From IMG/VR virus record IMGVR_UViG_3300025914_000010, positions 1 to 64,000 of that record: DNA of 64,000 nt; one strand, written 5' to 3'. The stretch comes from a virus. Each line of letters starts with the position of its first letter. Position 1 is the stretch's first letter. The translations under genes and the position numbers were made by a program. Below the pieces are notes generated by a model, which did no database searches, was not told the origin of the DNA, and saw nothing but the letters and a program-made list of their open reading frames with translations. Of the stretch, positions 19,370 through 48,966 are shown piece after piece.

Positions 19370-19813
19370 ATGAAAGCTATCAGTTTATGGCAACCGTGGG
19401 CGTCCCTGGTTGGACGCGGCAAGATGCATGAAACGCGTTCGTGGCCGACTGCCTACCGAGGCCCTATTGCCATTCACGCAGCGAAGCACTTCACGCAGGA
19501 TGAACGAGACGTTTACTGCAGTGAACCGTTCAGGTCTGCTCTAAAAGAATTTTGGTTTTTCGACCAGGAGTTACCGCGTGGCGCGATTGTCGCTATTGCA
19601 AATTTAGTCGCGTGCAAACCCACGCGCGGGGCAAAAAATGAATTTGGCTCGGGACCGAAATACGCTGATTGGGTCCACATGATTTCAAAGGAAGATCGAG
19701 CGTTCGGCGACTTTACGCCAGGTCGATTCGGATGGCAGTTCGCAGACATTCGGATACTGCCACAGCCTATCCCGTACCGAGGCGCACAGGGATTGTTTGA
19801 AGTGCAACTTTGA
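19370..19813 (+). CDS. ASCH domain protein
   Basis: MKAISLWQPWASLVGRGKMHETRSW..YRGPIAIHAA...PIPYRGAQGLF. Confidence 0.9.
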   Translation: MKAISLWQPWASLVGRGKMHETRSWPTAYRGPIAIHAAKHFTQDERDVYCSEPFRSALKEFWFFDQELPRGAIVAIANLVACKPTRGAKNEFGSGPKYADWVHMISKEDRAFGDFTPGRFGWQFADIRILPQPIPYRGAQGLFEVQL

Positions 19814-19925
19814 GATCAAAAAGCAGACGAATGGCGAGCAATTCCGGGTATAATTTAGGTGTATGCAGAGGCGGTTTGGCGACCCCTCTGCGTGGACATC
19901 TACCTTCTCGTGAAAGGCGATTATC

Positions 19926-20975
19926 ATGCGTAAGTATACCCCTGAAGCCCCGACTCCGTGTTTTGGTTCATTCACTCCTTCGTCTGTTTACACCGAGTTC
20001 CGCAAGGTTCCATACACTCCTGAGCAAGATGAAATTCTGCGCCGCATGTACCTTACCCATTCTCACTTAGAGATCGGGATGCTTATTGGTCGTGTCGAGA
20101 AATCGGTTCGCAATAGGTGTTGGGTGCTGGGACTTCGCAAGCGCAATGGCCCCTGGACAGAAGCGGAATACGAGCAGGTTCGGCAGTGGTACGCAGATCA
20201 CGAAAGCGGCAAAGGTTTCTTTTTAGACGAGCTGAGTAGAATTATGCATCGTAGTAAATGCGATATTTGCGATAAAGCGGCCGCAATGGGGCTGACACGC
20301 AAGAAACGTTTCTACGGGCATAAAGAACCGCGCAAGCCAATGTTTGCAACAGAACCTGAACGTATTGCATTCCGTGCTGCTCAAATGAGACAGTGGTACT
20401 CTCTGAACAAACACCCGCGCGGATATCGCGGACACAAACATTCCGCTGACACCCGCGCCAAGATTTCCGCCCGAAGCATAGCGGCAGCGGCCAAGAAAAC
20501 GCCTGAACAGAGGAGCGAAATCAACATGCGATCTGTCCAAACCAAAATTGCAAAATATGGCACTGCGGGGCCGACCATGCTTTCAAGCAATGCCTACAGC
20601 CGCACCAAAAGCGGAAAGCGTGCCGATCTTGGCGGGCAGTTCTTTCGTTCGCGATGGGAAGCCAATTACGCTCGCTACTTGCGGATGCTGGTTGAAAAAG
20701 GGCAGATCAAGTCATGGGAATTCGAGCCTAAGACATTCGTATTTGTCGGCGTTACTCGCGGCCAACTGACCTACACTCCGGACTTTCGCATCACAGAAAA
20801 TGACGGATCGCAAGTTTGGCACGAAGTCAAAGGATGGATGGACGCCAAGAGCAAAGCCAAGTTGAAGCGGTTCGCTAAGTTCTTCCCCGAAGAAAAACTC
20901 ATTGTAATAGCACAGCCGGAATACAAGGCCATAGCGCAATACGCTCGTCTGATCGAAGGTTGGGAAGATGAATAA
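19926..20975 (+). CDS. Endonuclease with HTH/NUMOD3-like DNA-binding region and C-terminal PD-(D/E)XK (DUF1064-like) domain
   Basis: GHKHSADTRAKIS; FRSRWEANYA...YTPDF...HEVKGW. Confidence 0.8.
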   Translation: MRKYTPEAPTPCFGSFTPSSVYTEFRKVPYTPEQDEILRRMYLTHSHLEIGMLIGRVEKSVRNRCWVLGLRKRNGPWTEAEYEQVRQWYADHESGKGFFLDELSRIMHRSKCDICDKAAAMGLTRKKRFYGHKEPRKPMFATEPERIAFRAAQMRQWYSLNKHPRGYRGHKHSADTRAKISARSIAAAAKKTPEQRSEINMRSVQTKIAKYGTAGPTMLSSNAYSRTKSGKRADLGGQFFRSRWEANYARYLRMLVEKGQIKSWEFEPKTFVFVGVTRGQLTYTPDFRITENDGSQVWHEVKGWMDAKSKAKLKRFAKFFPEEKLIVIAQPEYKAIAQYARLIEGWEDE

Positions 20976-21108
20976 TGCCCTGGTAGAGATGAAGATACTG
21001 ATCGACGACAGCCGCAAGCACGTCACTGCTTACACTGCGTCGATTGTCGGGCGCGAAGTCGAAAAGGATCGCGCTTGTGTTGTCGTGCTGATTGAGGAGG
21101 ATATATGA
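20968..21108 (+). pseudogene. Possible C-terminal remnant of a RusA-like resolvase
   Basis: NALVEMKILIDDSRKHV...RACVVVLIEE resembles the RusA C-terminus. Confidence 0.4.
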
Positions 21109-21335
21109 GCAAGTTCATCATCCGCCCCGACAGTCACGGCCACGTAGACGACGTAGTTATCACATGCGACAGTTTTCGCATGGAACGCATGGACAAAGGC
21201 TCGTGGTGCATTGCCGTCTATCGCGGTGAAGAGCGGGTCTGCTTCAGCCTTACGAGCAGCAAGGGGAGCATTCGGGCGATCGTGACGGAGGATGATTTTG
21301 ACTGCGTGGATGATACGCCGAAGAAGGCGAAGTGA
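21105..21335 (+). CDS. Hypothetical protein
   Basis: GAGGAG RBS. Confidence 0.6.
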   Translation: MSKFIIRPDSHGHVDDVVITCDSFRMERMDKGSWCIAVYRGEERVCFSLTSSKGSIRAIVTEDDFDCVDDTPKKAK

Positions 21336-21636
21336 CCGCCGCTCCCGGCCCACCCCGCCAAGTGACCTGCCACAAGTGCGGCAGGATTGACGTGAACCAC
21401 GAGTGGGACGGGCAGACGGTTGAGGAGGGAGGAACGGGCGATGGCGAAGGTTAGCCCCAAATTCGTAAACTGCTTATCTTGTATCGTCGAAATTATAGAC
21501 GATGCGAACAAACCGCGCAGGATACGGGAATACAAGGTTCGGCGGGAAGCGTTCTTGGCCGACCTGTCCCCGTCCGAACGCCGCGCCGTCGCTAAGATCG
21601 AAGTGGCGATTGCTGAACTGAGCGAGGAAGCAGACG

Positions 21637-21873
21637 ATGGACGCTAAAAAAGCGACGGGAGTACGGCTAGTATCCGTGCTGCTGGTCGTCCTGCTCGGGT
21701 TCAACCTTGTCTTAGGGTATCAGTCAGAGCAGCGCCGGATAAACCGGCAACTCATCGCCCTGGCCGCCGGCCAGGACGCTCTCATCAACCAGTGCGACCG
21801 TATCCAGGCGGAACTGCGGAGGCATGAGGCGGTTGCCGGGAAAAAGAGGGCGGCAGAAGATGGCGGACGCTAA
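21637..21873 (+). CDS. Small membrane-anchored coiled-coil protein
   Basis: N-terminal hydrophobic helix. Confidence 0.55.
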   Translation: MDAKKATGVRLVSVLLVVLLGFNLVLGYQSEQRRINRQLIALAAGQDALINQCDRIQAELRRHEAVAGKKRAAEDGGR

Positions 21874-22517
21874 GAGGGTGCTGAAGTGGCTCAAGAGGGC
21901 CGAAGAGCGACGTTGGTACGGCGATGGTTATGATCGCCCGTGCTGCGGGTTTCATTATCGATTGGGGCAAGATGTGACGCATTCACCCACGTGCGAACTC
22001 GGCGCCTTAATCGCCGAATATGAGCACGAAGCTGCGACTACCGGCTGGCAATCCACCGTCGGCATGTTCACGGGTGACACCGCAATGATGGAGATTTCCG
22101 AGGCGACGCGGAAGGTCCGGGAGGATCATTGGGTAGATGGTTCGGGCGGATGGAGGCCGGGATCGGAGCTGGCGCGACCTCCCGCCGCTGCCGCCGACCG
22201 GGAAGGAGCCGAAGCCGTGAGCAACAAGCCAACATGGTTCCAGAAGCAACTCGACGCCGCCAGCGCACGCGCCGACAAACTGCCCGATTGGGCGAAGAAG
22301 GAGGCGGGGCTGCCGGTAACGGAGCCAATCGACCTCGCCGTTGAGTGCGGGCGGCTACGGAAGGGCATCGACCGGATCGCGCGAAAATGCGAGCACTCAC
22401 ATCATCCTGGCGTCCACGTGACGGGAGCGGAGCTGCGAGCGTTGATTGCCGAGCCGGAAATGCCGGTGGCTGTCCGGGCGGCGATGGAGGCGGAAGCGGA
22501 AGCGAAGGAGGAGGGCG

Positions 22518-22730
22518 GTGAAACTGAAACCTGAAAAATATACGCTTGTACCGCTGCCTGATGGCCGATGGAAGTGCCACGAGAACCAGATGCGCAGTTC
22601 ATGGAGCTACGGCGCAACGCCAAACGAAGCGATTGAAAACGCTCGTGTGTGCTTCGAGAATTTCAAAGCATTCTGCGCACGGATGGAAGAATTGTATCCG
22701 AGCCTGAGCGATAAGGCGAGCAACCAATGA
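22518..22730 (+). CDS. Second small HicB-like protein
   Basis: YTLVPLPDGRWKCHENQMRSSWSYGATPNEAIENAR; similar to 340-579. Confidence 0.5.
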   Translation: MKLKPEKYTLVPLPDGRWKCHENQMRSSWSYGATPNEAIENARVCFENFKAFCARMEELYPSLSDKASNQ

Positions 22731-22828
22731 CCTTCCCCGCGCACCCGCCGCTGCTTCTATGGCCAATGCCGCAGAGACAGGCGAGGCGGGCGGTCCGGGG
22801 GAACTCGGATACGAAGAGGAGGAGAGAG

Positions 22829-23143
22829 ATGAGCAATAATCTGGAAGTCAAAGCAACGCTTGATGGGCCATCAGTAACCGAGGCGATAACGAAGGCGATT
22901 CTCGACAGCGTTCTCGGTCAAGAGATCGAGAAGGAAGTCAAGAGTTATGTCAGCAAGTTGCACAATTCGTACAACAGTCCGCTTGAGTCTACGGTTAAGC
23001 GCATCGTGGATGAAGAGTTGTACAAGGTCATCACAATGGACTACATGGACCAAATCCGAGCCGTCATTCGCGAGAAGGTAGACGAGAAGATGGTCAGTAT
23101 TATCGTAGAAAAAGCGTGGGAATCGTTCGAAAAAAGGTGGTAG
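22829..23143 (+). CDS. Hypothetical protein, last gene of the + strand region
   Basis: GAGGAGG RBS. Confidence 0.65.
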   Translation: MSNNLEVKATLDGPSVTEAITKAILDSVLGQEIEKEVKSYVSKLHNSYNSPLESTVKRIVDEELYKVITMDYMDQIRAVIREKVDEKMVSIIVEKAWESFEKRW

Positions 23144-23190
23144 CGGATTAGGGCACTACCGCGCCGCAATCAAATCCATCTGCCCGTACG

Positions 23191-25456: not shown

Positions 25457-25535
25457 AAGGCGGTATCTGTGTGCAGCGTCAGTACAGCGCTCGACACGAA
25501 ATCGAGCGTTATTACGAGAAGTCGGGGGCCAAATA

Positions 25536-25624: not shown

Positions 25625-25627
25625 GTT

Positions 25628-26533: not shown

Positions 26534-26628
26534 TTTGATCTCAAATCAGGTATAATTTAGCAGACAAAACAAAAGCCCCCGCGACGGCTGGAACCGTCCG
26601 GGAGCGTGACACCGAAAGGGTAATTTCG
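26534..26628 (+). promoter_or_regulatory. Endonuclease promoter, operator and two-hairpin leader
   Basis: TTTGATCTCAAA, GGTATAAT, bulged-C hairpin, GTGA, start-occluding hairpin; same layout at 48874-48966 and 19809-19925. Confidence 0.7.
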
Positions 26629-27255
26629 ATGTGTAAGAAGTTTACCTCAACCCAGAACCACAGTCGCACGTGCTTGAATTGTGCCCAACCACTCAAACGC
26701 GGCAGTATAAAATATTGCTCAAAAATCTGCCACGATGCTGCTCAAACAATCAATCCCGTTGTGAATTTCTGGAACCATGTAAGCAAATCCAACATGTGTT
26801 GGATTTGGACAGGTTCATTAACAAGACAAAACGGTTATGGCAATTTTGCGTACCGCACGAACGGAAAACGCACGTATTGCAATGCTCATCGGTATTCTTG
26901 GGAGATACATTTCGGGTGCGTGCCTGCTGGAGTGTGCGTTTTACATAGATGCGATAATCCGCAATGTGTAAATCCTGACCACCTGTTTCTTGGCACGCAT
27001 AGAGATAATTCGCAAGACATGGTTTCTAAAGGACGACAAGCGTTTGGTGACAGGCATGGCTCCCACATTCAACCTGAAACTGTTCAGCGTGGGGAAGATA
27101 ACGGCAACTCCAAACTTACGCCTGAAATTGTACTTGAAATTCGTCGCCTGTATTTGATCGAAAAAGTCAAATCACTGGTGATTGCCAACAAATTCAATAT
27201 CTCCCAAGTTACCGTGACAAATATTGCACATCGCCGATCTTGGCAACATGTTTAG
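26629..27255 (+). CDS. HNH homing endonuclease (HNH_3 type with C-terminal HTH)
   Basis: CWIWTG...GYG...AHRYSW...VLHRCDNPQCVNPDHLFLGTHRDNSQDMVSKGR; low GC; antisense to late operon. Confidence 0.92.
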   Translation: MCKKFTSTQNHSRTCLNCAQPLKRGSIKYCSKICHDAAQTINPVVNFWNHVSKSNMCWIWTGSLTRQNGYGNFAYRTNGKRTYCNAHRYSWEIHFGCVPAGVCVLHRCDNPQCVNPDHLFLGTHRDNSQDMVSKGRQAFGDRHGSHIQPETVQRGEDNGNSKLTPEIVLEIRRLYLIEKVKSLVIANKFNISQVTVTNIAHRRSWQHV

Positions 27256-37386: not shown

Positions 37387-39871
37387 TAATGCACGAATCG
37401 GCATTTCCGGGTGTCCACTGTCGTGCCCTTGTTCTCATGCTGTTCCATATTCTGAACCATATTCTTAATCCTGAAAGATTAGTCGTCGTTCTTAAAGTGA
37501 AGACAAAATTTAATTGGCCGTCATCAACATTATTCCACTGTTTCGAGGCTAAAATTCTGTCCGGTGCCCACCAATTCCAGATGTCGTCGTGCAGCGGCCA
37601 TGAAGCAACCCTGTTGTCGGGGTTCGTCGGTTCCGAAGCACTCACCGCCGCTCCGACGTAACTCTGCGTGAAGCCGCAGCTCGGCGCGGTCCAGAGACCG
37701 AGGAATTGGTAGGTGTAATACCCTTGCGCGTCGGGACCGGCGGAAATAATGTTGTCAACCGTAAAATCGGTGATCGTGTAACACGTGATGCTCTGGCTGA
37801 AAGAGCCAGGCGTCGCCGTCAGGATTGCGCTCGGCAGCGACTCGTTCCCATCTGCATCCACTGAAGTTACGTACACCCACACCTGCACCCCGGCGGTCAG
37901 CGGGCCGAGGATGGACGCGCCGGATGCCGGGTCTGCGACTTTATAGAACGCAAAACCGCTGTTCTCGCTCGTCGAGGAAAGATAGACATTCACGTGATCG
38001 ACGGTCGGGTCGGTGATGAAATCGAAAAGCGCGGTCAGTTCTGTTGGGTCGCCGCCGACGATATTTAAATCCGTCAGGTTGGGAGCCGTCGCCGCCTGCG
38101 TCACGTACGGGATGAACTCGCCCTTCGCGAGCCACTGCCCGTAGGTGATGCTATGCGTGATCGCTACGAGCGACCACAGTTCCTGTAGCCTCTCTTTACC
38201 AGTCGCACTCGAAGCCCGAGCATAGAGATTGGGGCGCGCAGGTGCTCGGAACCCGAATATCTGCTTGATGCGCGTCTCGAATGTCGGGCGAATTCCGGCG
38301 CTTAAAGTCTCCAGGTTCCACGCGTAATCGCGCAGGAAGTGGTCGGCAACTTTCTCTCGCAGCGGGATCGTGCTCGCAAGCGGGTTGGTGATCCGTGTCG
38401 TCCGTGTGCCGTATCGCGCGACGCTGTTCGGTTCAAATCCTGTAATCGTCCCGGACCCGCTCGCCTTGCTGGTGCCGGTCTGCACGACCACACGATTGCG
38501 CATCTGCTTACCAGTCGCCTGCCGTTCGCAGTCGAACACGTCGTAGCAGCCATCATTGGCAGCGATGCACACGCGATCGGGATAATCCTGGCTGAAGGGC
38601 GGCTCAACCGCCTGCAGCACTCCATTTCCATCAGCATAGAAATTCCAGCCGATAACGCCGAACAACTCCTCGCAGTACCCAAGCATCGAATTCGTCTGGC
38701 CCTGCCAGAGCGGATAACGCAGGCCAGTCAGATTGCTGCCGTTCGCCCATCCGATCTCGGAACTGCTGAACGGCGCATCGTACTCCGATTCCGACTTCCA
38801 GTAAGCGGTGCTCGTCAGCAGCGAATAGACGATATCAGCAAGTTCGATCCCGCCACTGCTCGTCTGCCGGTACGGTGCCGTCAAAAACACGTCGTTGTTG
38901 TCTGCGAGCCGCTTCTTCATATCCACAGCCACGCATCGCACCTTCCCGGTATTCGAGAAGTCGAGCGTGTCGCCGAGGAACCCAGTAAAGATGTTCGCGC
39001 CAAGAGCCTTGTATATCTCGCCTCCATAGACCGCCAACTCGTCTAGCCCTAGCGTCTGCGCACCGGTCGGGATGATCCGAAAGCGAATGTACCGCGCCGA
39101 CGCCCGCAGGTCCGTAAACACCACATCAACTGTCGTGCCTTGCCGACTGTCCCCCCAATCGCCAGGATCAATGCTCACCGATCCGTTGCCACCAACCGGG
39201 CGCGTCGGCCAGGGAGTGTAATCGGTTCCGTTGGTCGAAAGCGCCACGGTCACGGAAGAAGGCAGGCGGAAATCCGTGCCGCTCGACCCTCCTACGTACG
39301 TCGCAAACCGGATCACGCAGTGCTTGATGTCGCTCGCGGCTCCGAGATCAACCGTCAGGTCGATGGGCGTCGCATCTGTGGGCGCGAACTCCACGTATCC
39401 GCTGATACTGTTCGTGATGTTCCCGAGGATACCGTCGGTCAGCACGCTCAACGGCCCCGCGCTCGGGCTGCGGGTGCTCGTGACGCTTAGCCCGACCGCG
39501 AGGTTGGTGTAACAGTTCGTGCCGACACGAGCGACGATCTTGCGCGCTTCATCCAGCAGTGGGTCAAAGTCGCCGTTGGTGTTGAAATTATACGGACTTT
39601 GCTTATTCTTCCGTCCGTAGAACCCGTACTGGTCGGGCAGGGTGAACGAGAGCGTGGACGGCTGCTTGTAAACCTGCGCCAATTCTAAGCCATTATCCGG
39701 CCCCGTGATCGGCTGCTCGGGAAAGAGATGCCACGCCGAATCGCGGCGATACCACAACTCGATCGGGTTTTCCGCATATCGAGAGATGCGGTGCACGCGA
39801 GCAGCCAGCGTTCGTGCGTCGCTGTCGATCTCCTGTATCTGGGTCTCGTACGTCGCAAACGGGTTGCTCAT
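37379..39871 (-). CDS. Minor tail/baseplate hub protein with discoidin- and FN3-like segments
   Basis: Directly after tape measure; WNFYADGNG, RNRVVV, SVARYG; VYVTSVDADGNES. Confidence 0.75.
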   Translation of the reverse strand: MSNPFATYETQIQEIDSDARTLAARVHRISRYAENPIELWYRRDSAWHLFPEQPITGPDNGLELAQVYKQPSTLSFTLPDQYGFYGRKNKQSPYNFNTNGDFDPLLDEARKIVARVGTNCYTNLAVGLSVTSTRSPSAGPLSVLTDGILGNITNSISGYVEFAPTDATPIDLTVDLGAASDIKHCVIRFATYVGGSSGTDFRLPSSVTVALSTNGTDYTPWPTRPVGGNGSVSIDPGDWGDSRQGTTVDVVFTDLRASARYIRFRIIPTGAQTLGLDELAVYGGEIYKALGANIFTGFLGDTLDFSNTGKVRCVAVDMKKRLADNNDVFLTAPYRQTSSGGIELADIVYSLLTSTAYWKSESEYDAPFSSSEIGWANGSNLTGLRYPLWQGQTNSMLGYCEELFGVIGWNFYADGNGVLQAVEPPFSQDYPDRVCIAANDGCYDVFDCERQATGKQMRNRVVVQTGTSKASGSGTITGFEPNSVARYGTRTTRITNPLASTIPLREKVADHFLRDYAWNLETLSAGIRPTFETRIKQIFGFRAPARPNLYARASSATGKERLQELWSLVAITHSITYGQWLAKGEFIPYVTQAATAPNLTDLNIVGGDPTELTALFDFITDPTVDHVNVYLSSTSENSGFAFYKVADPASGASILGPLTAGVQVWVYVTSVDADGNESLPSAILTATPGSFSQSITCYTITDFTVDNIISAGPDAQGYYTYQFLGLWTAPSCGFTQSYVGAAVSASEPTNPDNRVASWPLHDDIWNWWAPDRILASKQWNNVDDGQLNFVFTLRTTTNLSGLRIWFRIWNSMRTRARQWTPGNADSCIIM

Positions 39872-42800
39872 ACCGGCTGCAGCCCAAAATCACCGCCGTG
39901 GTTGAACAGCGAAGCGGTCCCGAGGCTCGTCTGCTGCGCGATAACGCGCTGCGTCGTCGTCTTCACGCCATCAACGTAGTTGTTAATCTCGAAGATCGGC
40001 GCATTCGTCGGCGGCACGGCAAACCCCACGTTCTGCATCGTCGGCTTGATCCCGTAAGCGGTGTAGTTGTACGCGCCAATGTCAAATGCTGAAGGAGCGT
40101 TGTAGAGACTGGGATTGAGGTCCTGCGGCGTCTGCGTCGGCTTGTTGCTCTGATGGAAAAGACCGCCGATCAGGTCCGCCACGCCGCCAACGGCCGCGCC
40201 GATCAATCCACCGATCGGCCCTCCGAAGCTCGCGCCGATGCTCGCGCCGGTAATCACGCCGCCAAGGAGGTTCCCCGCATTCACGCCCTGCTGCGCCGCC
40301 GTCGCGCCGATGCTGTAGGCCGCGAGCGCTGCACCGCCCGCTTTCTGCAAATCGGTCTGCCCAGCCTTGCGCCCCTTCGAACTCGTGCCCGTGCTGTTGC
40401 CGCCGCCCGTGCCTGCTGCCTGCGCGAAGCCGGCGACCACGCCCGCTGCCACGCTCTGTGCGACTGGCGAATTCGAAATGTTTCCGGTCGGCACGCCGAC
40501 GCCGGTTCCTGTACCTGAGAGCGTTGCGTTTAGCGCGTCGAGGGCGTCGGTGTTCCCCTGGAGGCTCAATATCTGGTTCGTCGTCGTCTGGATAAGGGGA
40601 TCGGTGAACCGTTTGATCTGCGCCTCAAGCGCGGCATCGACGATCTTCCCGCCAATGTCCTGTGCTACCGTCCCGATGTCCCCGCGCCCGTGGAAAAAAT
40701 TCAGGAACGCGCTGTTCACCGTCTCCTTCACGCTCCCGAAGACGTTCTGGTACTTCTGCAGCGCGCTCTCGATCTTGAAGTCACTCAGGTTCTGCTGCGC
40801 CTCCTGCAAGTTCTTCGAAGCCTTGCGGATCTCGCTATTGCCTGTCTCGCTGTACACCCCCTCGTTGATCTTCTTAACGGCGTCGAGGTGCTCCTGCGCT
40901 GTATGGATAAGTTCCTGGTACTTCGCGATCGTATCTTTCGTCGCGGCTCCTTCATCAGCGGCGAACTTTAACCGGTGCAGATGGTTGATCTCCTCGGCCT
41001 TAAGTTGATACGCGTCGGCTTCCGTCTGCACGCGCTTCTGATAGGCTTCCGCCGCAACCTTGTCCTTGAAGTCGATGAGCGCCGCGTTCGCGTCTGCGAG
41101 TTTATTGCGCATCTCCTTGAGTTGATCGACGTTCTCCTGCGTCGGCGATGTGATTTTCGCGAGAGCATCTACGGCCGCCTGAATGATCTCAACCGCCCGC
41201 TGCAGGCGCGAACTCTCGGCTGCGTTCTGGTTCGTGAAGATGTCGTTGCCGCGCGCGCCCCGCTGGAGCGCGTTCAGCCGGTCCTGTACCGCTTCGCCGA
41301 GGCTCTGCCCGTACTGGTTCTGAAGCGCCGCCGGACTGATACCGGTCCCGAAGAAGCCCTGCATGAAAGTCGTCGCCAGTTCCTTCAACGCATCCTTCTG
41401 CGTCGCCCCCGTGCCAGTCAGCCCCGCATTGATCTCCCGCAATTCCCCCGGCCCTGCCGCTGCCCGTTCCGCGAGGTCGGCTGCCTTTGCCGCTGCAATC
41501 GCCTGCGGGCTGAGGACGCCGTGCTGCTTAACGGCGATGTCGTAATCCCGACGCGTCGTCTCGGCGCGCGCCTTCATCATCGCTTCGGAGGCGTCGTGTG
41601 CGTTCTGCCACGCTTCGTTCTCGGCTTTCAGCGCGTCTTCGCGCGCCTTGTCCGCCTTGTCCGCCAACTCAACCTGCGCACCTTCGCGATTCGCGTTCAG
41701 CATCATCCGTGTCGCGTTGTCGTTCTCGGCCTTCGCGATCTGCTTGCGCAGGTTGTCGGTTTTCACCGCCGCCGCGACAATCTCGGGCGACTGGTAGTTC
41801 GGAGCCGCCTTCTCGCTTTCCTGGCCCACAAGGATGTCGAACTGTGCTTTCGCGGTGTTGTACTTGTCCTTCAGCGCGTCCATGTACTGCCGCGCCGCTT
41901 CGTTGGCCGCTCTCTCGGCGTCCTTGTCAGGAGGCGGCGTGTAGCCTCCCTTGACGTGCAGATTGCCCGTGTTTGGGTTTGCGGGTTGAAGTCCGACGGG
42001 AGGCAAACCGAAATGCGCGTTCTGGAGTTGTTGCTGCATAACGCGGGCGTCGCGCTGCATCGCCATCTGAACTTCGTGCAGCGAGATCCCCGCTTCCCTG
42101 GCGTACCGATACTTCACCATCTCGGCTTCGGCGGGCGTCATGCCGTCGGTGACGAGGTTCCAGTTCCATCCCTGGCCGATCGGCCTATTCATATCTTGTG
42201 GCGCTTGAAACGGACCCGAAGCCTGCGATCTGCGAATATTTCCCAGTGACTGTTGAACTGCACCCTGCGTGGTAGTTACGGCCTGCCTGACCGGAGCACC
42301 AGGTGCTAGAGCGCCGCGAGTGAACGCATCTCGTCCCTGCTGAAAGTCACGAACGATGCGCATCGCTTCTAGGATGTGCTGCAGGTCGTCCCCGATGCCA
42401 TGCAGCCAACCACGCAGAGGACTTATATCGATCAGGTTGGATAGATACGAGAAGGCCCCACCCCACACTCGTTTCCACTCCTGTTCAGTGGTCGTCATCG
42501 TCTGACGCAGATTGTCCGTCTCAGATGTCAACCCGTGCGTCGCCTTGGTAGCAGCATCCAATTTCTCCTGGATAACGCGCAGGAACTCGGGGTTAACCGT
42601 GCCGAACAACCGCCAAGCCTGCTGCGTGCCGCTGATCGCCTGCGAGAACTTCTGAGCAGTTGCGACTGGCATTCGGCTCGCGACTTCGTTGAAGTTCTTC
42701 ATCGTCTGGATCAAATCCAGACCGCCGGACGGAGTAAGCCCTGCCTGAAGTGTCGCGCCCTTGTTGCTGATAAGCCCGGTCGCGGGATTGAAATGTTGGA

Positions 42801-43698
42801 TCATCTGCGAGATCAACTGCGCCGACTCCGTGCCGCCCATCCTGCCGCGAACGCCCTCGAATGTTAGCGCGGAGATAGTCGCCGCCACTTGCTCCAGCGG
42901 TACGTGCGCTGCCTCTGCGATAGGGCCGAGATACTTCAATGAATTCGTGATCTCGGAAATCTCAGCCGCCGAGCCTTTCCACATGGACGCCAGCAGTTCG
43001 CCGGATCGCCTCATCTTCTCGCTCTGATCGACATTCTTTCCGAGCTGGTCACCAAATTGGTTGTAAACCTGCAGCATCGCCCGCGTCACGTCGCGCGCAT
43101 CGCTCTCGGTCCCCACCACGAGGTTCATGCTCGTCTGAAGTGCGGAAAACGCTGCCGCGTTGTCCTTAATCTGCGTCTTAAGCTGATAGTAAGCCTCACC
43201 GATGTCCTTGATATCGGCCCCCGTGCGCGCCGCCTCCGCCGCGAAATCAGCCCGAATTCCCGGTGTGCTGCCTGCCGGAGAAACCCGCTGAACCCGCGCC
43301 GCCTGCTTCTCCATCTCCTTCATCGCTTCAAATGCCGCGGTGATCGATCGCGTCACGCCCTCGAACACGAGCGAAACGGCGCGGTACTGCAGCATCCGTG
43401 CGAACAGGTTCCCCATTTGACCGCTCGCGCTATTCGCGGAATTTCCCATGTTCGTGATGCTGGTCGTCGCGCTGTTAATCGACCGGTTGACGTTGTTGGT
43501 CGTGTTGTTGATCGTCACGAACTGCGAGCCAAGCCGGTTCGCCCCCTGCGCGCTCGCCTGCATCGCTGCGTTGAAGTTGACGTAGCTTGCCGTGAGCGAC
43601 TGCAGGCGTCGGTCGTGCGTGCCGAGCGACGTGTTAAGTGCCTGAAGGTCGGAAAGACCGAGCACTTCTACCTGGATTTGACTGCGCCGAGTTGCCAT
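39868..43698 (-). CDS. Tail tape measure protein
   Basis: 1276 aa, helical and Ala-rich; TP901-like core; C-terminal GGPIGGLIGAAVGG. Confidence 0.9.
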   Translation of the reverse strand: MATRRSQIQVEVLGLSDLQALNTSLGTHDRRLQSLTASYVNFNAAMQASAQGANRLGSQFVTINNTTNNVNRSINSATTSITNMGNSANSASGQMGNLFARMLQYRAVSLVFEGVTRSITAAFEAMKEMEKQAARVQRVSPAGSTPGIRADFAAEAARTGADIKDIGEAYYQLKTQIKDNAAAFSALQTSMNLVVGTESDARDVTRAMLQVYNQFGDQLGKNVDQSEKMRRSGELLASMWKGSAAEISEITNSLKYLGPIAEAAHVPLEQVAATISALTFEGVRGRMGGTESAQLISQMIQHFNPATGLISNKGATLQAGLTPSGGLDLIQTMKNFNEVASRMPVATAQKFSQAISGTQQAWRLFGTVNPEFLRVIQEKLDAATKATHGLTSETDNLRQTMTTTEQEWKRVWGGAFSYLSNLIDISPLRGWLHGIGDDLQHILEAMRIVRDFQQGRDAFTRGALAPGAPVRQAVTTTQGAVQQSLGNIRRSQASGPFQAPQDMNRPIGQGWNWNLVTDGMTPAEAEMVKYRYAREAGISLHEVQMAMQRDARVMQQQLQNAHFGLPPVGLQPANPNTGNLHVKGGYTPPPDKDAERAANEAARQYMDALKDKYNTAKAQFDILVGQESEKAAPNYQSPEIVAAAVKTDNLRKQIAKAENDNATRMMLNANREGAQVELADKADKAREDALKAENEAWQNAHDASEAMMKARAETTRRDYDIAVKQHGVLSPQAIAAAKAADLAERAAAGPGELREINAGLTGTGATQKDALKELATTFMQGFFGTGISPAALQNQYGQSLGEAVQDRLNALQRGARGNDIFTNQNAAESSRLQRAVEIIQAAVDALAKITSPTQENVDQLKEMRNKLADANAALIDFKDKVAAEAYQKRVQTEADAYQLKAEEINHLHRLKFAADEGAATKDTIAKYQELIHTAQEHLDAVKKINEGVYSETGNSEIRKASKNLQEAQQNLSDFKIESALQKYQNVFGSVKETVNSAFLNFFHGRGDIGTVAQDIGGKIVDAALEAQIKRFTDPLIQTTTNQILSLQGNTDALDALNATLSGTGTGVGVPTGNISNSPVAQSVAAGVVAGFAQAAGTGGGNSTGTSSKGRKAGQTDLQKAGGAALAAYSIGATAAQQGVNAGNLLGGVITGASIGASFGGPIGGLIGAAVGGVADLIGGLFHQSNKPTQTPQDLNPSLYNAPSAFDIGAYNYTAYGIKPTMQNVGFAVPPTNAPIFEINNYVDGVKTTTQRVIAQQTSLGTASLFNHGGDFGLQPV

Positions 43699-43743
43699 TG
43701 CTGTGAGGTATTATCCTTAACGCTGCATAGGAGGCAGCCGAAC

Positions 43744-44354: not shown

Positions 44355-44702
44355 CTACCGGCTCGCCTCGACTTCCAGCGCCGCACAGAAACTCTGGTAG
44401 ACGGCGTAGACCGCTGCCGGCCCGTGGTAGGTCGTCACCTTCCCGGTCTTCTTGTGGGTGTACTTCATCGGCAGATTTCGCTCGAACACGACCTCTAGTT
44501 GTCCGCGATAGAGCCGCCCGATGTCGCCGCTCGATTGCTGGATCGCGTTCACCATCCCGAGCCACTGCAGCACGTCCACCGCCCAGTGCGGCAGATCAGG
44601 CTGGTTGATGACGACACCGCTCATTCGGAAATTCAGCGGGTCGCCGAGCCGGTAGATCGCACTTAGCCCCGACGTACCGAGGATACGCCGGGCTAGGTAG
44701 GG
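44355..44702 (-). CDS. Frameshift extension of the tail assembly chaperone (GT-like)
   Basis: -1 frame open from CCCTACC at 44696-44702 through 44355. Confidence 0.6.
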   Translation of the reverse strand, partial: PYLARRILGTSGLSAIYRLGDPLNFRMSGVVINQPDLPHWAVDVLQWLGMVNAIQQSSGDIGRLYRGQLEVVFERNLPMKYTHKKTGKVTTYHGPAAVYAVYQSFCAALEVEASR

Positions 44703-45370
44703 ATCTCTTCCTGCTTCACGGTGTCGAGCGTCTTGTAGTAGAACTCGCGCAGCGCCTCCTGAACAGCGTCGTCAGCGTCCTCGTACGCCTCCGCGCTCTT
44801 GAAGTACCGCTGCGTGTGGTCGTCGGGCAGACGCGTCGCGCGGTAGATCGTTTCGCGCTCGCGCCGCTTGATGAACGCCTTGCCCCACTCGTTGGCGTAA
44901 AACGTCTCGCAGCACCGTTCCTGGCGCACGCGGGCGGTTAGGTCGAGGTTCTTCTTGATCTCGGCGCGATACCGTGTCTCGAACGCCTTCTGCCGCTTAT
45001 CGTCCGCCTTCTTACACTCCTCTTCCCACGTAACCACTCTCTTACCGAACTCCTCCGGGCTGTCTTCGCCCTGCGTCGGCTTTTCTGGAATAGGGTATTT
45101 CTCGAACACTTCGCGCCGCATTTCCGGGAACTCGTTCTGTGCAAGGTAGGCTGCTTGATCCTCCTGGCTTTTCGCTTTGATCTCCGCGACCACATCCGCA
45201 TAATCGCTCTGGCCCTTCAGGAACGGCCGCGCCTCTTTCTGTGCGTACCACCGCGCCTTCTCGTCCGCCTCTTCGAAGAGACGAGAGTTCAGCGTGCACA
45301 CCCAGACGCGATCGCCGTTCGGCAAGGTTAGGTCGCCAGCGGTTCTGCGGGGAAATTCTGCATCTGACAT
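44693..45370 (-). CDS. Tail assembly chaperone (G-like)
   Basis: Between tail tube and tape measure; GGAGG RBS; ends EEIPT*. Confidence 0.7.
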   Translation of the reverse strand: MSDAEFPRRTAGDLTLPNGDRVWVCTLNSRLFEEADEKARWYAQKEARPFLKGQSDYADVVAEIKAKSQEDQAAYLAQNEFPEMRREVFEKYPIPEKPTQGEDSPEEFGKRVVTWEEECKKADDKRQKAFETRYRAEIKKNLDLTARVRQERCCETFYANEWGKAFIKRRERETIYRATRLPDDHTQRYFKSAEAYEDADDAVQEALREFYYKTLDTVKQEEIPT

Positions 45371-45451
45371 AAGGTTAAGCCGCCCTCCTATTGCGGCCAT
45401 TGACCTTGCCGAGACGCAGCGGATAGGAGCCACCGCATCTCGGCAAGTAGG

Positions 45452-46675
45452 TTACGCGGTAGATAGCCAGCCTCCCAAGCCTGCCCCATCCTGCGGATAC
45501 TGCCCGGCCAGCGCCGCGTGTGTGAATGCGTTACGCAGCCGTATCTGGCACGAGTAGCCGAGTACCGGGTCTTTCTTGGCCTGGAAGTTGCCGCCGACGG
45601 TCATCGTCTTATCCGCGCGCGTCCGGTCGGCGTCCATGAACTTCAGGTGAGGCAGGTAGAGTTCGTATTCGTAGTAGTAGCCGGTCGATCCGATCTGCGC
45701 GCCCCGGAACAGCATGTTGATGCCGAACTTGCAGTTGGCGAGCGTCCCCTGTATGACCTGGTTGTCGCGGAAGATGATGTCCATCTTCCCGCTCACGCTG
45801 AAGCCGCCCGCGACTGGCACGGAAGCATCGTAGCCGGAGCCGCCAACCATGTTGCGCTCGATGTCGCGAGTCAGTTTCACGCTGAAGCCGGGCAGGAAGT
45901 CGGCGGTGATGGGGTTGTCGTTGAGGGTCACGAAGGCGGAAGAGAAACCGGCGGCGTTGCCGTTGAACATGTTGGCGAAGACAAGCGGCCCGTTCCCACA
46001 GTTCGTCTGCGCGACATCGACGTAGTTGGGTGAAAGGTTGATCTTGACTTGCTTCGTATGGTCGCCGCCGAGTTGTGAGGGTAGCAGCCCTGCCGTGCTG
46101 GTAAAGTCGTAGTCGGTATCGACGCCTCCCGCTGCCGGGTAGCGGTTCGGGATCTGCCGGTGGGCGTAGTAGTTCGCCTCCATCATCAGGATCGCGGTGT
46201 GGTTCAGCGTAATCTCGTTGAAACAGACGCCGGTCGAGAGTTGCCCGTTGGTAGCATCGCCGAAACTCTCTTCCTGCGTAAAGCTCGGCATGTAGTGCGG
46301 GAACTTCGCGTACATCACGTGGTCGTAAACGCCGGACGTAACCGTGCTCTCGACGTCGCGACCGAGGATGCCGAGGAGTGGGTAATAGGCGTTCTCGGGG
46401 TCGAGTTTCCAACTATCCTTGCCGTCGTAGAGTTTGCCGGTGAGAGTGATCCGGTGGACTTCGAAATCGCCATCCTGCTCCGTGCTCGCGACATCTTTCG
46501 TCGGCTTCGTCGGATACCCGCCGCCCGGTTCCACTCCAATAAAGCGCATCGGGTTTGTCGCTGCGATGCCCGCGTTGTAGACGTTCCCGCTCAAGTTGGT
46601 AAGCGGGGCCGATCGAAAAGCGCTCTCGATCGCAAATCCCACCGCGCTTGACCTGCCGCTCTGTGCACCAGACAT
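45452..46675 (-). CDS. Major tail tube protein
   Basis: G..S.VGFAIES.F N-terminus; PSFTQE; SVSGKMDIIF; strong codon bias. Confidence 0.8.
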   Translation of the reverse strand: MSGAQSGRSSAVGFAIESAFRSAPLTNLSGNVYNAGIAATNPMRFIGVEPGGGYPTKPTKDVASTEQDGDFEVHRITLTGKLYDGKDSWKLDPENAYYPLLGILGRDVESTVTSGVYDHVMYAKFPHYMPSFTQEESFGDATNGQLSTGVCFNEITLNHTAILMMEANYYAHRQIPNRYPAAGGVDTDYDFTSTAGLLPSQLGGDHTKQVKINLSPNYVDVAQTNCGNGPLVFANMFNGNAAGFSSAFVTLNDNPITADFLPGFSVKLTRDIERNMVGGSGYDASVPVAGGFSVSGKMDIIFRDNQVIQGTLANCKFGINMLFRGAQIGSTGYYYEYELYLPHLKFMDADRTRADKTMTVGGNFQAKKDPVLGYSCQIRLRNAFTHAALAGQYPQDGAGLGGWLSTA

Positions 46676-46794
46676 TGTTTTTTGAACCTCCCTGCAAACG
46701 TCGTCCTCCGGCTGCGCCGCAGGAAGTGCAACAAAAAAGGGAACGGCCCGAAGGTCGCTCCCCGTTTACTCACATCACTGGTAAACCGAAAATC

Positions 46795-47355
46795 TTACGC
46801 GTCACACCCGACGAACCACGAATATCTGATCTGGAGAGGCAGTACGCATATCGCTTCCGCCACCTGCTGATTGTTCGCACCCGTCGCCGAGAGCCACACG
46901 CGCTCGCTCAGCGCGCCGCCGCCCGCGTTCCCCGGTATCGTCAGCTCGTACCAGTAGCCGGAAACAACGATCTGCTGGAGCAGGATTTGCTTGATGTTGT
47001 GCCGGAGCTGGTTGCGCTGCTTGCGCGCCGAGAACTTGTCCGCCGCCTGCACCGCGACGATCAGCGGGACCACGAGCACTCGATACTCGACACGCCCGCC
47101 GCTCGTCTGAACGGGGAAGTCGAGGCTGTCAGTCGCCTCCATCGCCCGCGTTCCCACATAAACCGCAGGGCGGTGCTTGCTGCCGTCGTCGTCGTACGGC
47201 TTGTCGAAGAGATTGATGTACCCGGCTGCGGGCGAACCACTCACGTCGGGGCGCAGCACACCCGTCCAGCCCGCGCCATAGGCGTTGCCACCGGCGTAGA
47301 GGCTCGCGTCCGCCTGCAGGATGTCGAGGACCTTGTCGCAAATCTTTTCGATCAC
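46795..47355 (-). CDS. Tail terminator-like protein
   Basis: Position before tail tube; GTGA overlap with GT9 gene. Confidence 0.65.
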   Translation of the reverse strand: MIEKICDKVLDILQADASLYAGGNAYGAGWTGVLRPDVSGSPAAGYINLFDKPYDDDGSKHRPAVYVGTRAMEATDSLDFPVQTSGGRVEYRVLVVPLIVAVQAADKFSARKQRNQLRHNIKQILLQQIVVSGYWYELTIPGNAGGGALSERVWLSATGANNQQVAEAICVLPLQIRYSWFVGCDA

Positions 47356-48368
47356 GCTTCCGGCTCCAACCACTCACACGCCGCCGCCTGGAACCCGCTG
47401 AACGTGCAATCCACATTGACGTATGTCAGCCGTTCACCGCGCTGCAGGAACCGTCGGTAGTAGCTGGAGAGGAACTGCGTCGCGAGGTTGCCGACACAAA
47501 GGCACTTCTGCCGCTGGATCACGCTCCAATGCGCAAGGTTATTCGGCGTGGTGATGACGCCTTCGCAGAAATTAGAGATCGTCAGTACTTCCAGATTACT
47601 CTTCGTCTTGCCGATCAGGTTGACGAGCCGAGGCGACTTCGGCAGGAACATGATCGGGTGCAATCCGGTCAGCAGGTACGTGTGCGGCGTCTTATCGATC
47701 AGCCATTCGATCGCGGCCAACCAGTGCGGCCAGTGGTTGTTGACACTCTCGCTCCAATCGGAAATTGGATGCAGGTGGATAAGCGTCTTCGGCTTAATCG
47801 GCAGCACTTTCTGCATCAACTGGCCTGCGGCAGTCGCGTCCTTCTGCGGGATAATGCCGTCATGCCAGAGTTGCGCTGGCAGTCCCGTTCGCGTCTCAAA
47901 CCATTGGCTGTTGATGTGCGTCTGCGTGAAAGCATCAGCCGATGGTAACCCACGATACTGCTCCCACAACATCCCGAGCCATGCCATTGGTTCACTGTCC
48001 GGGCGACTCGTCGCGTACCAGAACTTCTTGTAGAAGTCGCCGTTATCGCTCTTGATGCCGATCACTTCGCCCGTGAACGGCTGGAGCAGCAGCCAATCTA
48101 CGATGTTCAGATCCGGCCCCACGTACAGGATATTGATCTTCTCCTGCCCGGTTGCCGCCATCATCGCCTTCATCACACCCACGCACATGAAAATATCGCC
48201 CCAGTGCCCGAACGCCGTGCACCACTGCATCGGCCTCTCGGGAGCCTTTATCGGCTTCATCAGCGACTCCGCGAGCACCACATCTTCGGTAAGAAATCGA
48301 TTACAACTCGGGCAGATCGGCACGGGCATAGTGAGCAGGCACTGCGGGCAGCTAAAATGAGCAGGCAT
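47352..48368 (-). CDS. Glycosyltransferase family 9-like (heptosyltransferase fold)
   Basis: HWGDIFMC..MKAM; IHLHP; VNLIGKT..LE...CEGVITTPNNLAHWS match GT9 motifs. Confidence 0.75.
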   Translation of the reverse strand: MPAHFSCPQCLLTMPVPICPSCNRFLTEDVVLAESLMKPIKAPERPMQWCTAFGHWGDIFMCVGVMKAMMAATGQEKINILYVGPDLNIVDWLLLQPFTGEVIGIKSDNGDFYKKFWYATSRPDSEPMAWLGMLWEQYRGLPSADAFTQTHINSQWFETRTGLPAQLWHDGIIPQKDATAAGQLMQKVLPIKPKTLIHLHPISDWSESVNNHWPHWLAAIEWLIDKTPHTYLLTGLHPIMFLPKSPRLVNLIGKTKSNLEVLTISNFCEGVITTPNNLAHWSVIQRQKCLCVGNLATQFLSSYYRRFLQRGERLTYVNVDCTFSGFQAAACEWLEPEA

Positions 48369-48476
48369 CGTGTCTTGATCGTCTCCTATTCGACTTCAGA
48401 CGCAGGTGACGTAAAGAAGCCCCGCAATCGCGCTAGAAAGCACGTACGGGGCTTGCAGTCTCGATTAGGCGGGAAT

Positions 48477-48776
48477 TTACGGGCCGGGCGTTGCTGCCGA
48501 TGTCGCAGGCGATGTCCCGGCTTCAATCGCGGCGATCTGCGCTGTCAGGTCGGTGATAGTGGTCGCTGCATCATCGTTCTCGCTCTGCAGCGTGGTGATC
48601 TGCGCATCTTTCCCGGCGTTAGCAGCATCGGCCGCGTCTACGCGGGTTTTGAGGTCGGCGACGGCACTGTCAAGTCTAGTCAACGAATCGGTCAGTTTGC
48701 TCAACTTCTTTCTCGCTTTCTTAAGTCGTCTCTCCTGGTCTTCGATCAGGGAGAGGAGGAGGGGTGTGGTTTTCAT
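48477..48776 (-). CDS. Small coiled-coil protein (start uncertain)
   Basis: Heptad-rich LTRLDSAVADLKTRVD. Confidence 0.55.
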   Translation of the reverse strand: MKTTPLLLSLIEDQERRLKKARKKLSKLTDSLTRLDSAVADLKTRVDAADAANAGKDAQITTLQSENDDAATTITDLTAQIAAIEAGTSPATSAATPGP

Positions 48777-48873
48777 GCGCTTTATGCTCACGCGAGTAAA
48801 AGCCCCGCCGAGTGAACGGTCGAGGCTTAGGGTGACGGGACGGCTGGGCGAAACATTTGTAACTATAGCTAGT

Positions 48874-48966
48874 TTTGATCTCAAAGCAGGTATAATAAAA
48901 GGGACAGCAGGCGTTCGCAGCGCCTCTGTCCCGTGATCCGCATCCATCTTGAAAGGAGATGCAGAT
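48874..48966 (+). promoter_or_regulatory. Endonuclease promoter, operator and two-hairpin leader
   Basis: TTTTGATCTCAAAGCAGGTATAAT, nearly identical to 26533-26556; GGGACAG-C-AGGCG..CGCCT-CTGTCCC-GTGA; SD-occluding hairpin. Confidence 0.7.

What the first reader, a model, noticed from the sequence alone, without database searches (positions are those of the whole stretch)
19809..48966. Shared, covarying RNA leader in front of three dissimilar endonuclease genes
Seen: upstream of 19926, 26629 and 48967 the layout is the same: GGTATAAT, then a 7-bp stem, a bulged C, a 4-5-bp stem-loop, then GTG(A/G), then a second hairpin covering the SD/start region. The stem sequences differ but pairing is kept: GCAGAGG-C-GGTT..GACC-CCTCTGC; GCCCCCG-C-GACGG..CCGTC-CGGGAGC (one mismatch); GGGACAG-C-AGGCG..CGCCT-CTGTCCC. 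The downstream proteins belong to different nuclease types (PD-(D/E)XK, HNH_3, CxCDCG-type HNH). Inference: a portable RNA module controlling toxic nuclease translation, or a small RNA cofactor/antitoxin that travels with mobile nucleases. It may correspond to a catalogued motif of unknown function (for example a RAGATH-class motif); I cannot check that here.
Basis: partly seen in the sequence, partly recalled or inferred. Interest (0 to 1): 0.8.

Follow-up and report, generated by a model that had tools for sequence, protein, structure and literature searches.

The report
Antisense-RNA control cassette heading homing endonucleases
Three unrelated selfish DNA-cutting-enzyme genes in this soil phage really do start with the same portable ~130-base control unit, but its conserved fold and a second, facing promoter hidden in the first codons suggest that it makes a small antisense RNA that holds the nuclease down, rather than being a simple mRNA leader.

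Summary
GGTATAAT, a 7-bp stem, a bulged C, a 4-5-bp stem-loop, GTG(A/G) and a hairpin over the SD and start codon precede the nuclease genes at 19926, 26629 and 48967.

The unit is portable. A related phage (G002) has two copies of the 19.8-kb type, 86% and 72% identical, before two other HNH genes at other sites, with compensatory stem changes. Three more cassettes in unrelated viral contigs (L006, L159/L179, L172) also head HNH genes; two keep the bulged-C design with new stem sequences. A close relative (L074) lacks the whole 870-bp unit at 48776-49645.

New here: codons 2-6 of five of the nuclease genes (c1-c3, G002a/b) read GGTA(A/T)ACT on the opposite strand, a facing -10 like the sense GGTATAAT. 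It lies 91-97 bp away and falls in two reading frames.

The opposite strand folds better in 6 of 7 cassettes, into an anti-start/anti-SD hairpin plus the bulged hairpin. In 4 of 6 hairpin types that hairpin is followed by a U-run.

Best reading (about 0.6): an IS10 RNA-OUT- or SymR-like cis-antisense cassette. No Rfam match and no transcript data.

The scan has noted similar cassettes in other phage lineages. Interest 0.6.

The parts
19809..19820 (+). GATC-containing near-palindrome TTTGAGATCAAA, the 5' edge of cassette 1
   Evidence: Conserved as T(A/T)TGATCT(C/T)AAA at the same place in both G002 copies.
19829..19844 (.). Small hairpin GAAT-N8-ATTC upstream of the sense -10 (c1-type cassettes only)
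   Evidence: One compensatory pair (G-C to A-U) among three copies. It lies outside any transcript started at the sense promoter.
19847..19854 (+). P-IN of cassette 1: GGTATAAT, a -10 without a -35
19865..19891 (.). Bulged hairpin of cassette 1 (7 bp, bulged C, 4 bp, loop TGGC)
   Evidence: Two compensatory pairs against G002. Not a terminator on either strand (d = -42 and -46).
19903..19928 (.). SD and start region of cassette 1. Sense strand: weak CCTT/AAGG hairpin. Antisense strand: a longer hairpin with G-U pairs.
19933..19940 (-). P-OUT of cassette 1: GGTATACT on the minus strand, inside codons 3-5 of the ORF
   Evidence: It lies 93 bp from P-IN.
19926..20975 (+). Nuclease gene 1: Myb-like N-terminus plus a DUF1064 / PD-(D/E)XK domain
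   Evidence: GC3 is 0.54 against 0.7-0.8 for its neighbours.
26534..26556 (+). Cassette 2: TTTGATCTCAAA motif abutting P-IN GGTATAAT
26566..26605 (-). Cassette 2 bulged hairpin (26575-26605) plus a minus-strand U-run UUUUGUUUU (26574-26566). This is an intrinsic terminator on the minus strand.
   Evidence: d = +36.7; -24.3 against -19.0 kcal/mol. The C.A mismatch on the plus strand is a G-U pair on the minus strand.
26610..26631 (.). Cassette 2 hairpin over the SD and start codon: 8 bp on the antisense strand, 5 bp on the sense strand
26639..26646 (-). P-OUT of cassette 2: GGTAAACT inside codons 4-6
   Evidence: It lies 97 bp from P-IN.
26629..27255 (+). Nuclease gene 2 (HNH_3), antisense to the late operon
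48776..49645 (+). The whole inserted block of cassette 3 (extra hairpin, promoter, leader, HNH gene), absent from relative L074
48874..48896 (+). Cassette 3: TTTGATCTCAAA motif plus P-IN GGTATAAT
48892..48932 (-). Cassette 3 bulged hairpin (48901-48932) plus a minus-strand U-run UUUUAUUAU. This is an intrinsic terminator on the minus strand.
   Evidence: (d = +16.6).
48936..48969 (.). Cassette 3 hairpin over the SD and start codon. The anti-SD CUCCUUUC sits in the loop on the antisense strand.
48973..48980 (-). P-OUT of cassette 3: GGTAAACT inside codons 3-5. The same first seven codons (M-P/T-S-L-P-R-I/L) occur in both G002 cassettes.
   Evidence: It lies 91 bp from P-IN.
48967..49653 (+). 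Nuclease gene 3 (HNH, phrog_374), antisense to the late operon

Best explanation
Each of the three nuclease genes is a free-standing homing-endonuclease gene. Each carries a portable regulatory cassette of about 130 bp, built from two face-to-face promoters that lack a -35 element.

- P-IN (GGTATAAT) makes the nuclease mRNA.
- P-OUT (GGTA(A/T)ACT) lies on the other strand, inside codons 2-6 of the ORF.

P-OUT would start a small RNA at about the start codon. This RNA would be roughly 65-80 nt in copies 2 and 3, and possibly about 115 nt in the copy-1 type. It would be fully complementary to the 5' UTR.

The antisense RNA folds into two hairpins. The 5' one displays the anti-SD and pairs the anti-start codon. 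The 3' one is the 'bulged-C leader hairpin'. In copies 2 and 3 this 3' hairpin is followed by a U-run and acts as the RNA's intrinsic terminator.

The antisense RNA pairs with the mRNA leader, probably starting with loop-loop contact, and blocks the ribosome site. Convergent transcription adds interference. Together these keep the nuclease low until P-IN outruns P-OUT.

What is shown:
- The sequence architecture.
- Its portability.
- Its exclusive link to nuclease genes.
- Covariation in the stems.
- The strand asymmetry of the folds.

What is inferred:
- That P-OUT fires.
- That the RNA exists.
- That it represses.
For: 1. Convergent -10 motifs. GGTAWAMT occurs 11 times in the genome against 3.1 expected. 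All five cassettes in G000 and G002 have a convergent pair 91-97 bp apart.

2. Two reading frames. The sense-strand image AGTWTACC lies in frame S-L-P in copy 3 and both G002 copies. It lies in frame K-F/Y-T in copies 1 and 2, and as AGTCTACC (Q-S-T) in L006. Selection is therefore on the DNA or RNA, not the protein. Similarity between cassettes ends just after this motif.

3. Terminators on the opposite strand. The hairpins of copies 2 and 3 score d = +36.7 and +16.6, as good as or better than the phage's own late-strand terminators. On the sense strand they score -47 and -29. L006 and L159 also carry UUUUG after the hairpin on that strand.

4. Fold asymmetry. The antisense strand has the lower minimum free energy in 6 of 7 cassettes and the better z-score in 5 of 7. 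It always gives the same two-hairpin fold. Several pairs are G-U on the antisense strand and C.A on the sense strand. These include two columns in the c1-type alignment, one a U-G pair in all three copies.

5. A compensatory pair in a small hairpin upstream of the P-IN start site cannot belong to the P-IN mRNA.

6. Portability.
- L074 lacks the whole block.
- G002 has the c1-type before two different HNH genes at other sites.
- L159/L179 and L172 carry the same 7 bp, bulged C, 4 bp design with different stems before HNH_3-type genes (Pfam HNH_3 confirmed for L159; L172's ORF is cut after 34 residues and judged by N-terminal similarity).

7. Precedent. SymR is a 77-nt RNA opposite the 5' end of symE, with its promoter embedded in the symE ORF (PMC1891008).
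Against: - There are no transcript data. P-OUT is only a -10-like octamer (TAAACT or TATACT) with no -35.
- The c1-type hairpin (three copies) and L172 have no U-run on the antisense strand. Their 3' end is therefore undefined.
- For copy 3 and L159 the two strands fold about equally well.
- Antisense strands rich in G and U can fold better for compositional reasons, although the shuffled controls argue against this in most copies.
- In copies 2 and 3 the U-runs could serve the late operon, which runs on that strand.
- The sample is small: 8 distinct cassettes and 6 hairpin types.
- Earlier notes of this scan gave me the lead, so my reading is not independent in origin, only in its tests.
Confidence: 0.6

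Rival explanations
1. This is a sense-strand 5' UTR only. P-IN makes an mRNA whose 5'-proximal bulged hairpin protects it from 5'-end-dependent decay or binds a factor. A second hairpin damps translation by covering the SD and start codon. No antisense RNA is made.
For: - The hairpin starts 4-18 nt after the -10. In copies 1 and 3 and in G002 that puts it at or within a few nucleotides of the predicted 5' end.
- SD/AUG hairpins exist on the sense strand too.
- Hairpin control of homing-endonuclease translation is established in T-even phages. One case, seg43(25), has a stable hairpin just upstream of the RBS that does not sequester it (PMC2988022).
- Copy 3 and L159 fold equally well on the sense strand.
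Against: This reading does not explain:
- The conserved facing -10 motif in two reading frames at constant spacing.
- The U-runs on the other strand.
- The G-U against C.A asymmetry.
- The compensatory pair upstream of the sense start site.

In addition, sense SD hairpins are only 4-5 bp in copies 1 and 2.
Confidence: 0.2
2. The hairpins are simply intrinsic terminators or insulators of the phage's late (minus-strand) operon. They happen to lie next to inserted nuclease genes and play no part in nuclease control.
For: - Copies 2 and 3 are canonical minus-strand terminators.
- The late operon has several similar inter-genic terminators at 62741, 61628, 56971 and 48453.
- Copy 2 sits at the end of the late operon.
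Against: - The copy-3 hairpin lies inside the block that L074 lacks, between the nuclease's promoter and its start codon.
- The c1-type and L172 hairpins are not terminators on either strand, yet they keep the same design and covary.
- Copy 1 lies in a plus-strand operon.
Confidence: 0.08
3. T4-style read-through control. GGTATAAT and AGTWTACC are the two arms of a long-range helix. In transcripts coming from upstream, this helix closes the whole leader over the SD and start codon. Transcripts started at P-IN lack the 5' arm and are translated.
For: - The two octamers are 6-7/8 complementary. In G002b a T-to-A change in P-IN restores a pair.
- The mechanism is established for I-TevI, segB and mobE (PMC2988022).
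- Complementary conserved motifs before homing-endonuclease genes were reported by Dassa et al. (PMC2677866).
Against: - The helix would be an interrupted, AU-rich 4-7 bp stem closing an 80-nt domain.
- Both arms keep the TAnnnT plus GG signature of a -10, which a helix does not need.
- Copies 2 and 3 are antisense to their neighbours, so little sense read-through is expected.
Confidence: 0.07

Closest known systems
IS10/Tn10 RNA-IN / RNA-OUT, and the type I toxin-antitoxin pair SymE/SymR
   Same: - A selfish or toxic nuclease-type gene.
- Face-to-face promoters.
- A small stem-loop RNA whose promoter lies in the first codons of the ORF and which covers the ribosome site and start codon.
- A stem interrupted by a bulge.

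SymR is 77 nt, with its promoter embedded in symE (PMC1891008).
   Different: - The controlled genes here are phage homing endonucleases of several families.
- The cassette is swapped between them.
- Both promoters are of the GGTAnAnT type without a -35.
- No RNA or repression has been shown.
Translational-control hairpins of T-even homing endonucleases (I-TevI, I-TevII, I-TevIII, segB, mobE)
   Same: - A homing-endonuclease gene with its own promoter and an RNA hairpin at the ribosome site.
- The purpose is to keep the nuclease low or late (PMC2988022).
   Different: - In those phages the promoter sits inside the hairpin, so its own transcripts escape. Here both hairpins lie downstream of P-IN.
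- The main hairpin here does not contain the RBS.
- A facing promoter is present here.
Conserved 5' hairpins of 'fractured-gene' homing endonucleases in marine metagenomes (Dassa et al. 2009)
   Same: The same hairpin-forming leader is shared by endonuclease genes of different families and host genes (PMC2677866).
   Different: - Those belong to T4-like marine phages.
- They contain the TATAAATA late promoter.
- They were read as RBS-sequestering sense hairpins.
CfrI antisense RNA of cyanophage S-PM2
   Same: A phage antisense RNA associated with a homing-endonuclease gene (as summarised in PMC12197685).
   Different: - CfrI is encoded between psbA and the endonuclease gene and is tied to psbA.
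- It is not a portable 5' cassette with facing promoters.

Membership tests
cis-antisense control of the IS10 RNA-OUT / SymR type | Convergent promoters, with the antisense one inside or next to the 5' end of the ORF | tested here: met
   -10-like GGTAWACT lies on the opposite strand in codons 2-6 of five cassettes (c1-c3, G002a/b), 91-97 bp from GGTAWAAT, with close variants or pattern-imposed copies in L006, L159 and L172. This rests on sequence only.
cis-antisense control of the IS10 RNA-OUT / SymR type | The antisense RNA overlaps the SD and start codon of the target | tested here: met
   This follows from the geometry. The predicted start is at the start codon and the RNA runs through the whole 5' UTR.
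cis-antisense control of the IS10 RNA-OUT / SymR type | A stable, structured antisense RNA with a defined 3' end | tested here: inconclusive
   The two-hairpin fold is conserved. A U-run terminator is present in copies 2 and 3, L006 and L159, but absent in the c1-type and L172.
cis-antisense control of the IS10 RNA-OUT / SymR type | The RNA is made and represses the target | not testable with these tools
   No transcriptome data are available for this uncultured phage.
T-even homing-endonuclease RBS-sequestering hairpin with an internal late promoter | The promoter lies inside the hairpin, so its own transcripts lack the 5' arm | tested here: not met
   Both hairpins lie wholly downstream of GGTATAAT.
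T-even homing-endonuclease RBS-sequestering hairpin with an internal late promoter | The main hairpin contains the RBS | tested here: not met
   The bulged hairpin ends 23-34 nt before the ATG. Only the weak second hairpin touches the SD and AUG.
Intrinsic (factor-independent) terminator | A GC-rich stem directly followed by a U-run | tested here: inconclusive
   Met on the minus strand for copy 2 (d = +36.7) and copy 3 (+16.6). Not met for copy 1 on either strand (-42 and -46).
Any Rfam family, including the RAGATH motifs held there | A covariance-model match | tested here: not met
   At gathering threshold on the window, the only matches are a tRNA and int-alpA. On 64-78.7 kb, no match at E <= 1.
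Free-standing homing-endonuclease gene | A nuclease ORF present or absent between conserved neighbours in related genomes | tested here: met
   - L074 lacks 48776-49645 and 56949-57968.
- G002 carries its cassettes at other sites, and the match spacing suggests it lacks the copy-1 gene, though this was not aligned.
- The nuclease genes have low GC3.
- Cleavage and homing were not tested.

The most novel reading that the evidence does not exclude
Phage homing endonucleases of unrelated families are governed by an exchangeable antisense-RNA 'antitoxin' cassette, a type I toxin-antitoxin-like module. The cassette moves between nuclease genes and between phages. The bulged hairpin serves both as the terminator of the antisense RNA and as the kissing partner on the mRNA. 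Together with the similar cassettes this scan noted in T4-like and other phages, this would be a general, undescribed layer of control of selfish nucleases.
Probability: 0.45. Interest if true: 0.75.

Novelty: new variant of a known kind. Interest (0 to 1): 0.6.

Why it matters
Homing endonucleases are among the commonest selfish genes in phages. How they are kept from harming their carrier is known only for a few T-even cases, all of them sense-strand hairpins.

A swappable cassette with facing promoters and a small antisense RNA would be a different solution, the one used by IS10 and by type I toxin-antitoxin pairs. It would explain three things:
- Why unrelated nuclease genes share a 5' end.
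- Why the first codons of these genes are conserved at the DNA level.
- Why such genes can sit antisense inside late operons.

It also gives a sequence signature for finding nuclease cassettes in metagenomes, and a compact natural repression module that can be tested with reporters.

Tried and rejected
- **Rfam.** No family matched at the three sites.
MAFFT could not align the hairpins because they share no primary sequence. No sound model could be built, so I used descriptor and pattern searches instead.
- **Searches that found nothing useful.**
  - Megablast of 19-27.5 kb against GenBank phages gave no match.
  - The exact promoter-plus-dyad pattern was absent from viral contigs and genome contigs.
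  - The c1 hairpin pattern in genome contigs gave only chance hits in unrelated genomes assembled from metagenomes (MAGs).
  - There were no relatives of the gene upstream of copy 1.
  - The genome search could not reach the metagenome records.
- **Ideas considered and dropped.**
  - lambda nut/boxB-like antitermination site: no boxA, and the hairpin sequences differ within one phage.
  - DNA operator palindrome: the three copies in one genome share no sequence.
  - RNase III site: the stems are too short.
  - REP/RAYT (repetitive extragenic palindrome and its transposase) or IS200-type hairpin: no conserved flanking tetranucleotide.
  - N4-type hairpin promoter: the phage has no virion RNA polymerase.
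- **Other HNH homologue loci (L003-L068).** They have their own promoters and SD-sequestering hairpins, but not this cassette, except L005/L006.

Full report
**Setting**

The window is the first 64 kb of a 78,660-bp IMG/VR virus record with 57.8% GC. It is a temperate siphophage.
- The integrase is at 4053-5102(-).
- The late operon is on the minus strand: protease 59275-60492, HK97-type capsid 57970-59235, tape measure 39868-43698.
- The early genes are on the plus strand.
- Early promoters are perfect TTGACA-N17-TATAAT.
- A second class, GGTATAAT without a -35, occurs six times against 0.47 expected.

**The observation**

All three leaders are as described. The layout is GGTATAAT, a 7-bp stem, a bulged C, a 4-5-bp stem-loop, GTG(A/G), and a small hairpin over the SD and start codon.

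The genes are dissimilar nucleases:
- A Myb-like domain plus DUF1064 / PD-(D/E)XK.
- HNH_3.
- An HNH of phrog_374.

Their GC3 is 0.48-0.54 against 0.7-0.8 for their neighbours. The hairpin shape alone is common in this GC-rich DNA, with about 100 loose matches, so the case rests on context and relatives.

Other nuclease genes lack the full unit. The gene at 9190 has only GGTATAAT and an SD-sequestering hairpin. The genes at 57002-57658(-) and 77607-78230 have none of it.

**The unit is a mobile block**

The close relative L074 has a capsid protein 89% identical. In L074 the two late genes that flank copy 3 are 10 nt apart. In the window, 870 bp (48776-49645) lie between them. This block holds an extra hairpin, the dyad, GGTATAAT, the bulged hairpin, the SD hairpin and the HNH gene. 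L074 also lacks the HNH gene after the capsid gene.

**The unit is portable between nucleases**

A search for a conserved hairpin led to relatives. One of them, G002, is 72.5 kb with terminal repeats. G002 holds two copies of the copy-1 leader, 86% and 72% identical over 84 and 134 nt. They precede two other HNH_3 genes at other genome positions. The proteins are otherwise unrelated.

Features of the G002 copies:
- The inner stem changes from GGTT/GACC to GTGT/ACAC, which is two compensatory pairs.
- The bulged C, the loop and GTGGACA are kept.
- A small hairpin upstream of the -10 has a further compensatory pair.

A last pattern scan returned about the chance number of hits. Three of them, two distinct cassettes, were real:
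- L159/L179: GCCCCCG-C-GCTG-...-CAGC-CGGGGGT.
- L172: GCCCCGG-C-GTGG-...-CCAC-CCGGGGC.

Both have again 7 bp, a bulged C and 4 bp, and both sit before HNH_3-type genes; Pfam HNH_3 was confirmed for L159, while L172's ORF is cut after 34 residues. L005/L006 carry a related leader before an HNH 34% identical to nuclease 2.

That makes eight distinct cassettes, all at nuclease genes.

**Which strand?**

Four results point to the opposite strand.

1. In five of the cassettes (c1-c3, G002a/b), codons 2-6 of the ORF read GGTA(A/T)ACT on the opposite strand. This has the same GG-TAnnnT signature as the sense promoter, and it lies 91-97 bp from it. Its sense image AGTWTACC sits in two different reading frames. 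Cassette similarity stops just after it.

2. On that strand the hairpins of copies 2 and 3 are followed by UUUUGUUUU and UUUUAUUAU. They score as strong intrinsic terminators (+36.7 and +16.6) and as non-terminators on the sense strand. L006 and L159 have the same feature.

3. The opposite strand has the lower energy in 6 of 7 cassettes and the better z-score in 5 of 7. It always folds as two hairpins. The 5' one pairs the anti-start codon and shows the anti-SD in or near its loop. The 3' one is the bulged hairpin. Several pairs are G-U there and C.A on the sense strand.

4. The covarying small hairpin lies upstream of the sense start site.

Earlier notes of this scan had proposed the same antisense reading for similar cassettes in other phage lineages. 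I took that as a lead and tested it here.

**Mechanism proposed**

P-OUT makes a small antisense RNA over the whole 5' UTR. This RNA and convergent transcription keep the nuclease low. P-IN may be timed by whatever reads the GATC-containing TTTGATCTCAAA motif, which is conserved in G000 and G002 but absent in L159, L172 and L006.

The firing of P-OUT, the existence of the RNA and the repression are all inferred.

Weak points:
- The c1-type and L172 have no U-run.
- P-OUT has no -35.
- For copy 3 and L159 the two strands fold equally well.

**Rivals**
- A purely sense-strand leader (0.2).
- Late-operon terminators unrelated to the nucleases (0.08).
- A T4-style long-range helix between the two octamers (0.07).

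**Comparison with what is known**

Hairpin control of homing endonucleases, and shared hairpin leaders before them, are published (PMC2988022, PMC2677866). So is cis-antisense control with a promoter inside the ORF (SymR, PMC1891008). A phage antisense RNA near a homing endonuclease is also known (CfrI).

My limited searches turned up no paper describing a swappable cassette with facing promoters on these genes. I therefore class this as a new variant of a known kind.

Noticed in passing
window 26575-26605; L069 6237-6266, 10093-10132, 10815-10841, 12285-12319, 13040-13075, 14230-14260 (genome 70237-78260): There is a family of GC-rich hairpins with an invariant CTGGAAC loop, all on the plus strand and 20-80 nt before plus-strand start codons. 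They sit right after stop codons or after a perfect sigma-70-type promoter. Two sequence types are conserved in about 15 soil and rhizosphere metagenome contigs. The downstream genes are mostly not nucleases. These hairpins are not terminators in general, and their function is unknown. The hairpin of copy 2 is a third type of this family.
   Followed up: partly
L069 12100-14660 against 9900-11400; window 1-144: The record's last 2.5 kb is a variant duplicate of 73.9-75.4 kb, and 75.8-75.96 kb resembles window 1-144. Contig L116 joins these regions directly. The record therefore looks like a circularly permuted assembly whose ends overlap through strain variation. The true genome is probably a few kb shorter.
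   Followed up: partly
window 56949-57968: A fourth homing-endonuclease insertion lies between the capsid gene's stop codon and the terminator hairpin that follows it. It holds an HNH_3 gene at 57002-57658(-) and is absent from relative L074. It is co-oriented with the late operon and has no promoter or antisense cassette.
   Followed up: partly
window 9154-9741: Another HNH gene (9190-9741) has the same GGTATAAT promoter but only a 28-nt leader. In that leader ATAAGC/GCTTAT encloses the SD. There is no bulged hairpin and no facing -10.
   Followed up: partly
window 62741, 61628, 60506, 56971, 48453, 48829 (minus strand): The late operon contains many inter-genic hairpin-plus-U-run elements, and two more were brought in by cassette 3. 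This suggests that late transcription is antiterminated, or that these elements set the ratios of the structural proteins.
   Followed up: no
window 63113-63183 (-): An int-alpA RNA (Rfam RF02996, 50 bits) overlaps the annotated 5' end (63140) of the gene 62025-63140(-). This gene carries a DNA methyltransferase-like domain rather than an integrase.
   Followed up: no
window 19809-19820, 26534-26545, 48874-48885, 53794-53805: The motif TTTGATCTCAAA occurs four times exactly against 0.24 expected and always contains GATC. The phage encodes a DNA methyltransferase-like domain (62025-63140). Methylation-sensitive promoter control, as at IS10 pIN, is conceivable. The 53794 copy is not conserved in L074.
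   Followed up: partly
L137 1402-1476 (-) (G002 about 7.3 kb): In G002a the cassette is followed by only a 15-codon ORF (MPSLPRIAPRIWTPE). The HNH ORF starts 75 nt further on in another frame. This could be a decaying gene, a frameshift, or a leader peptide.
   Followed up: no
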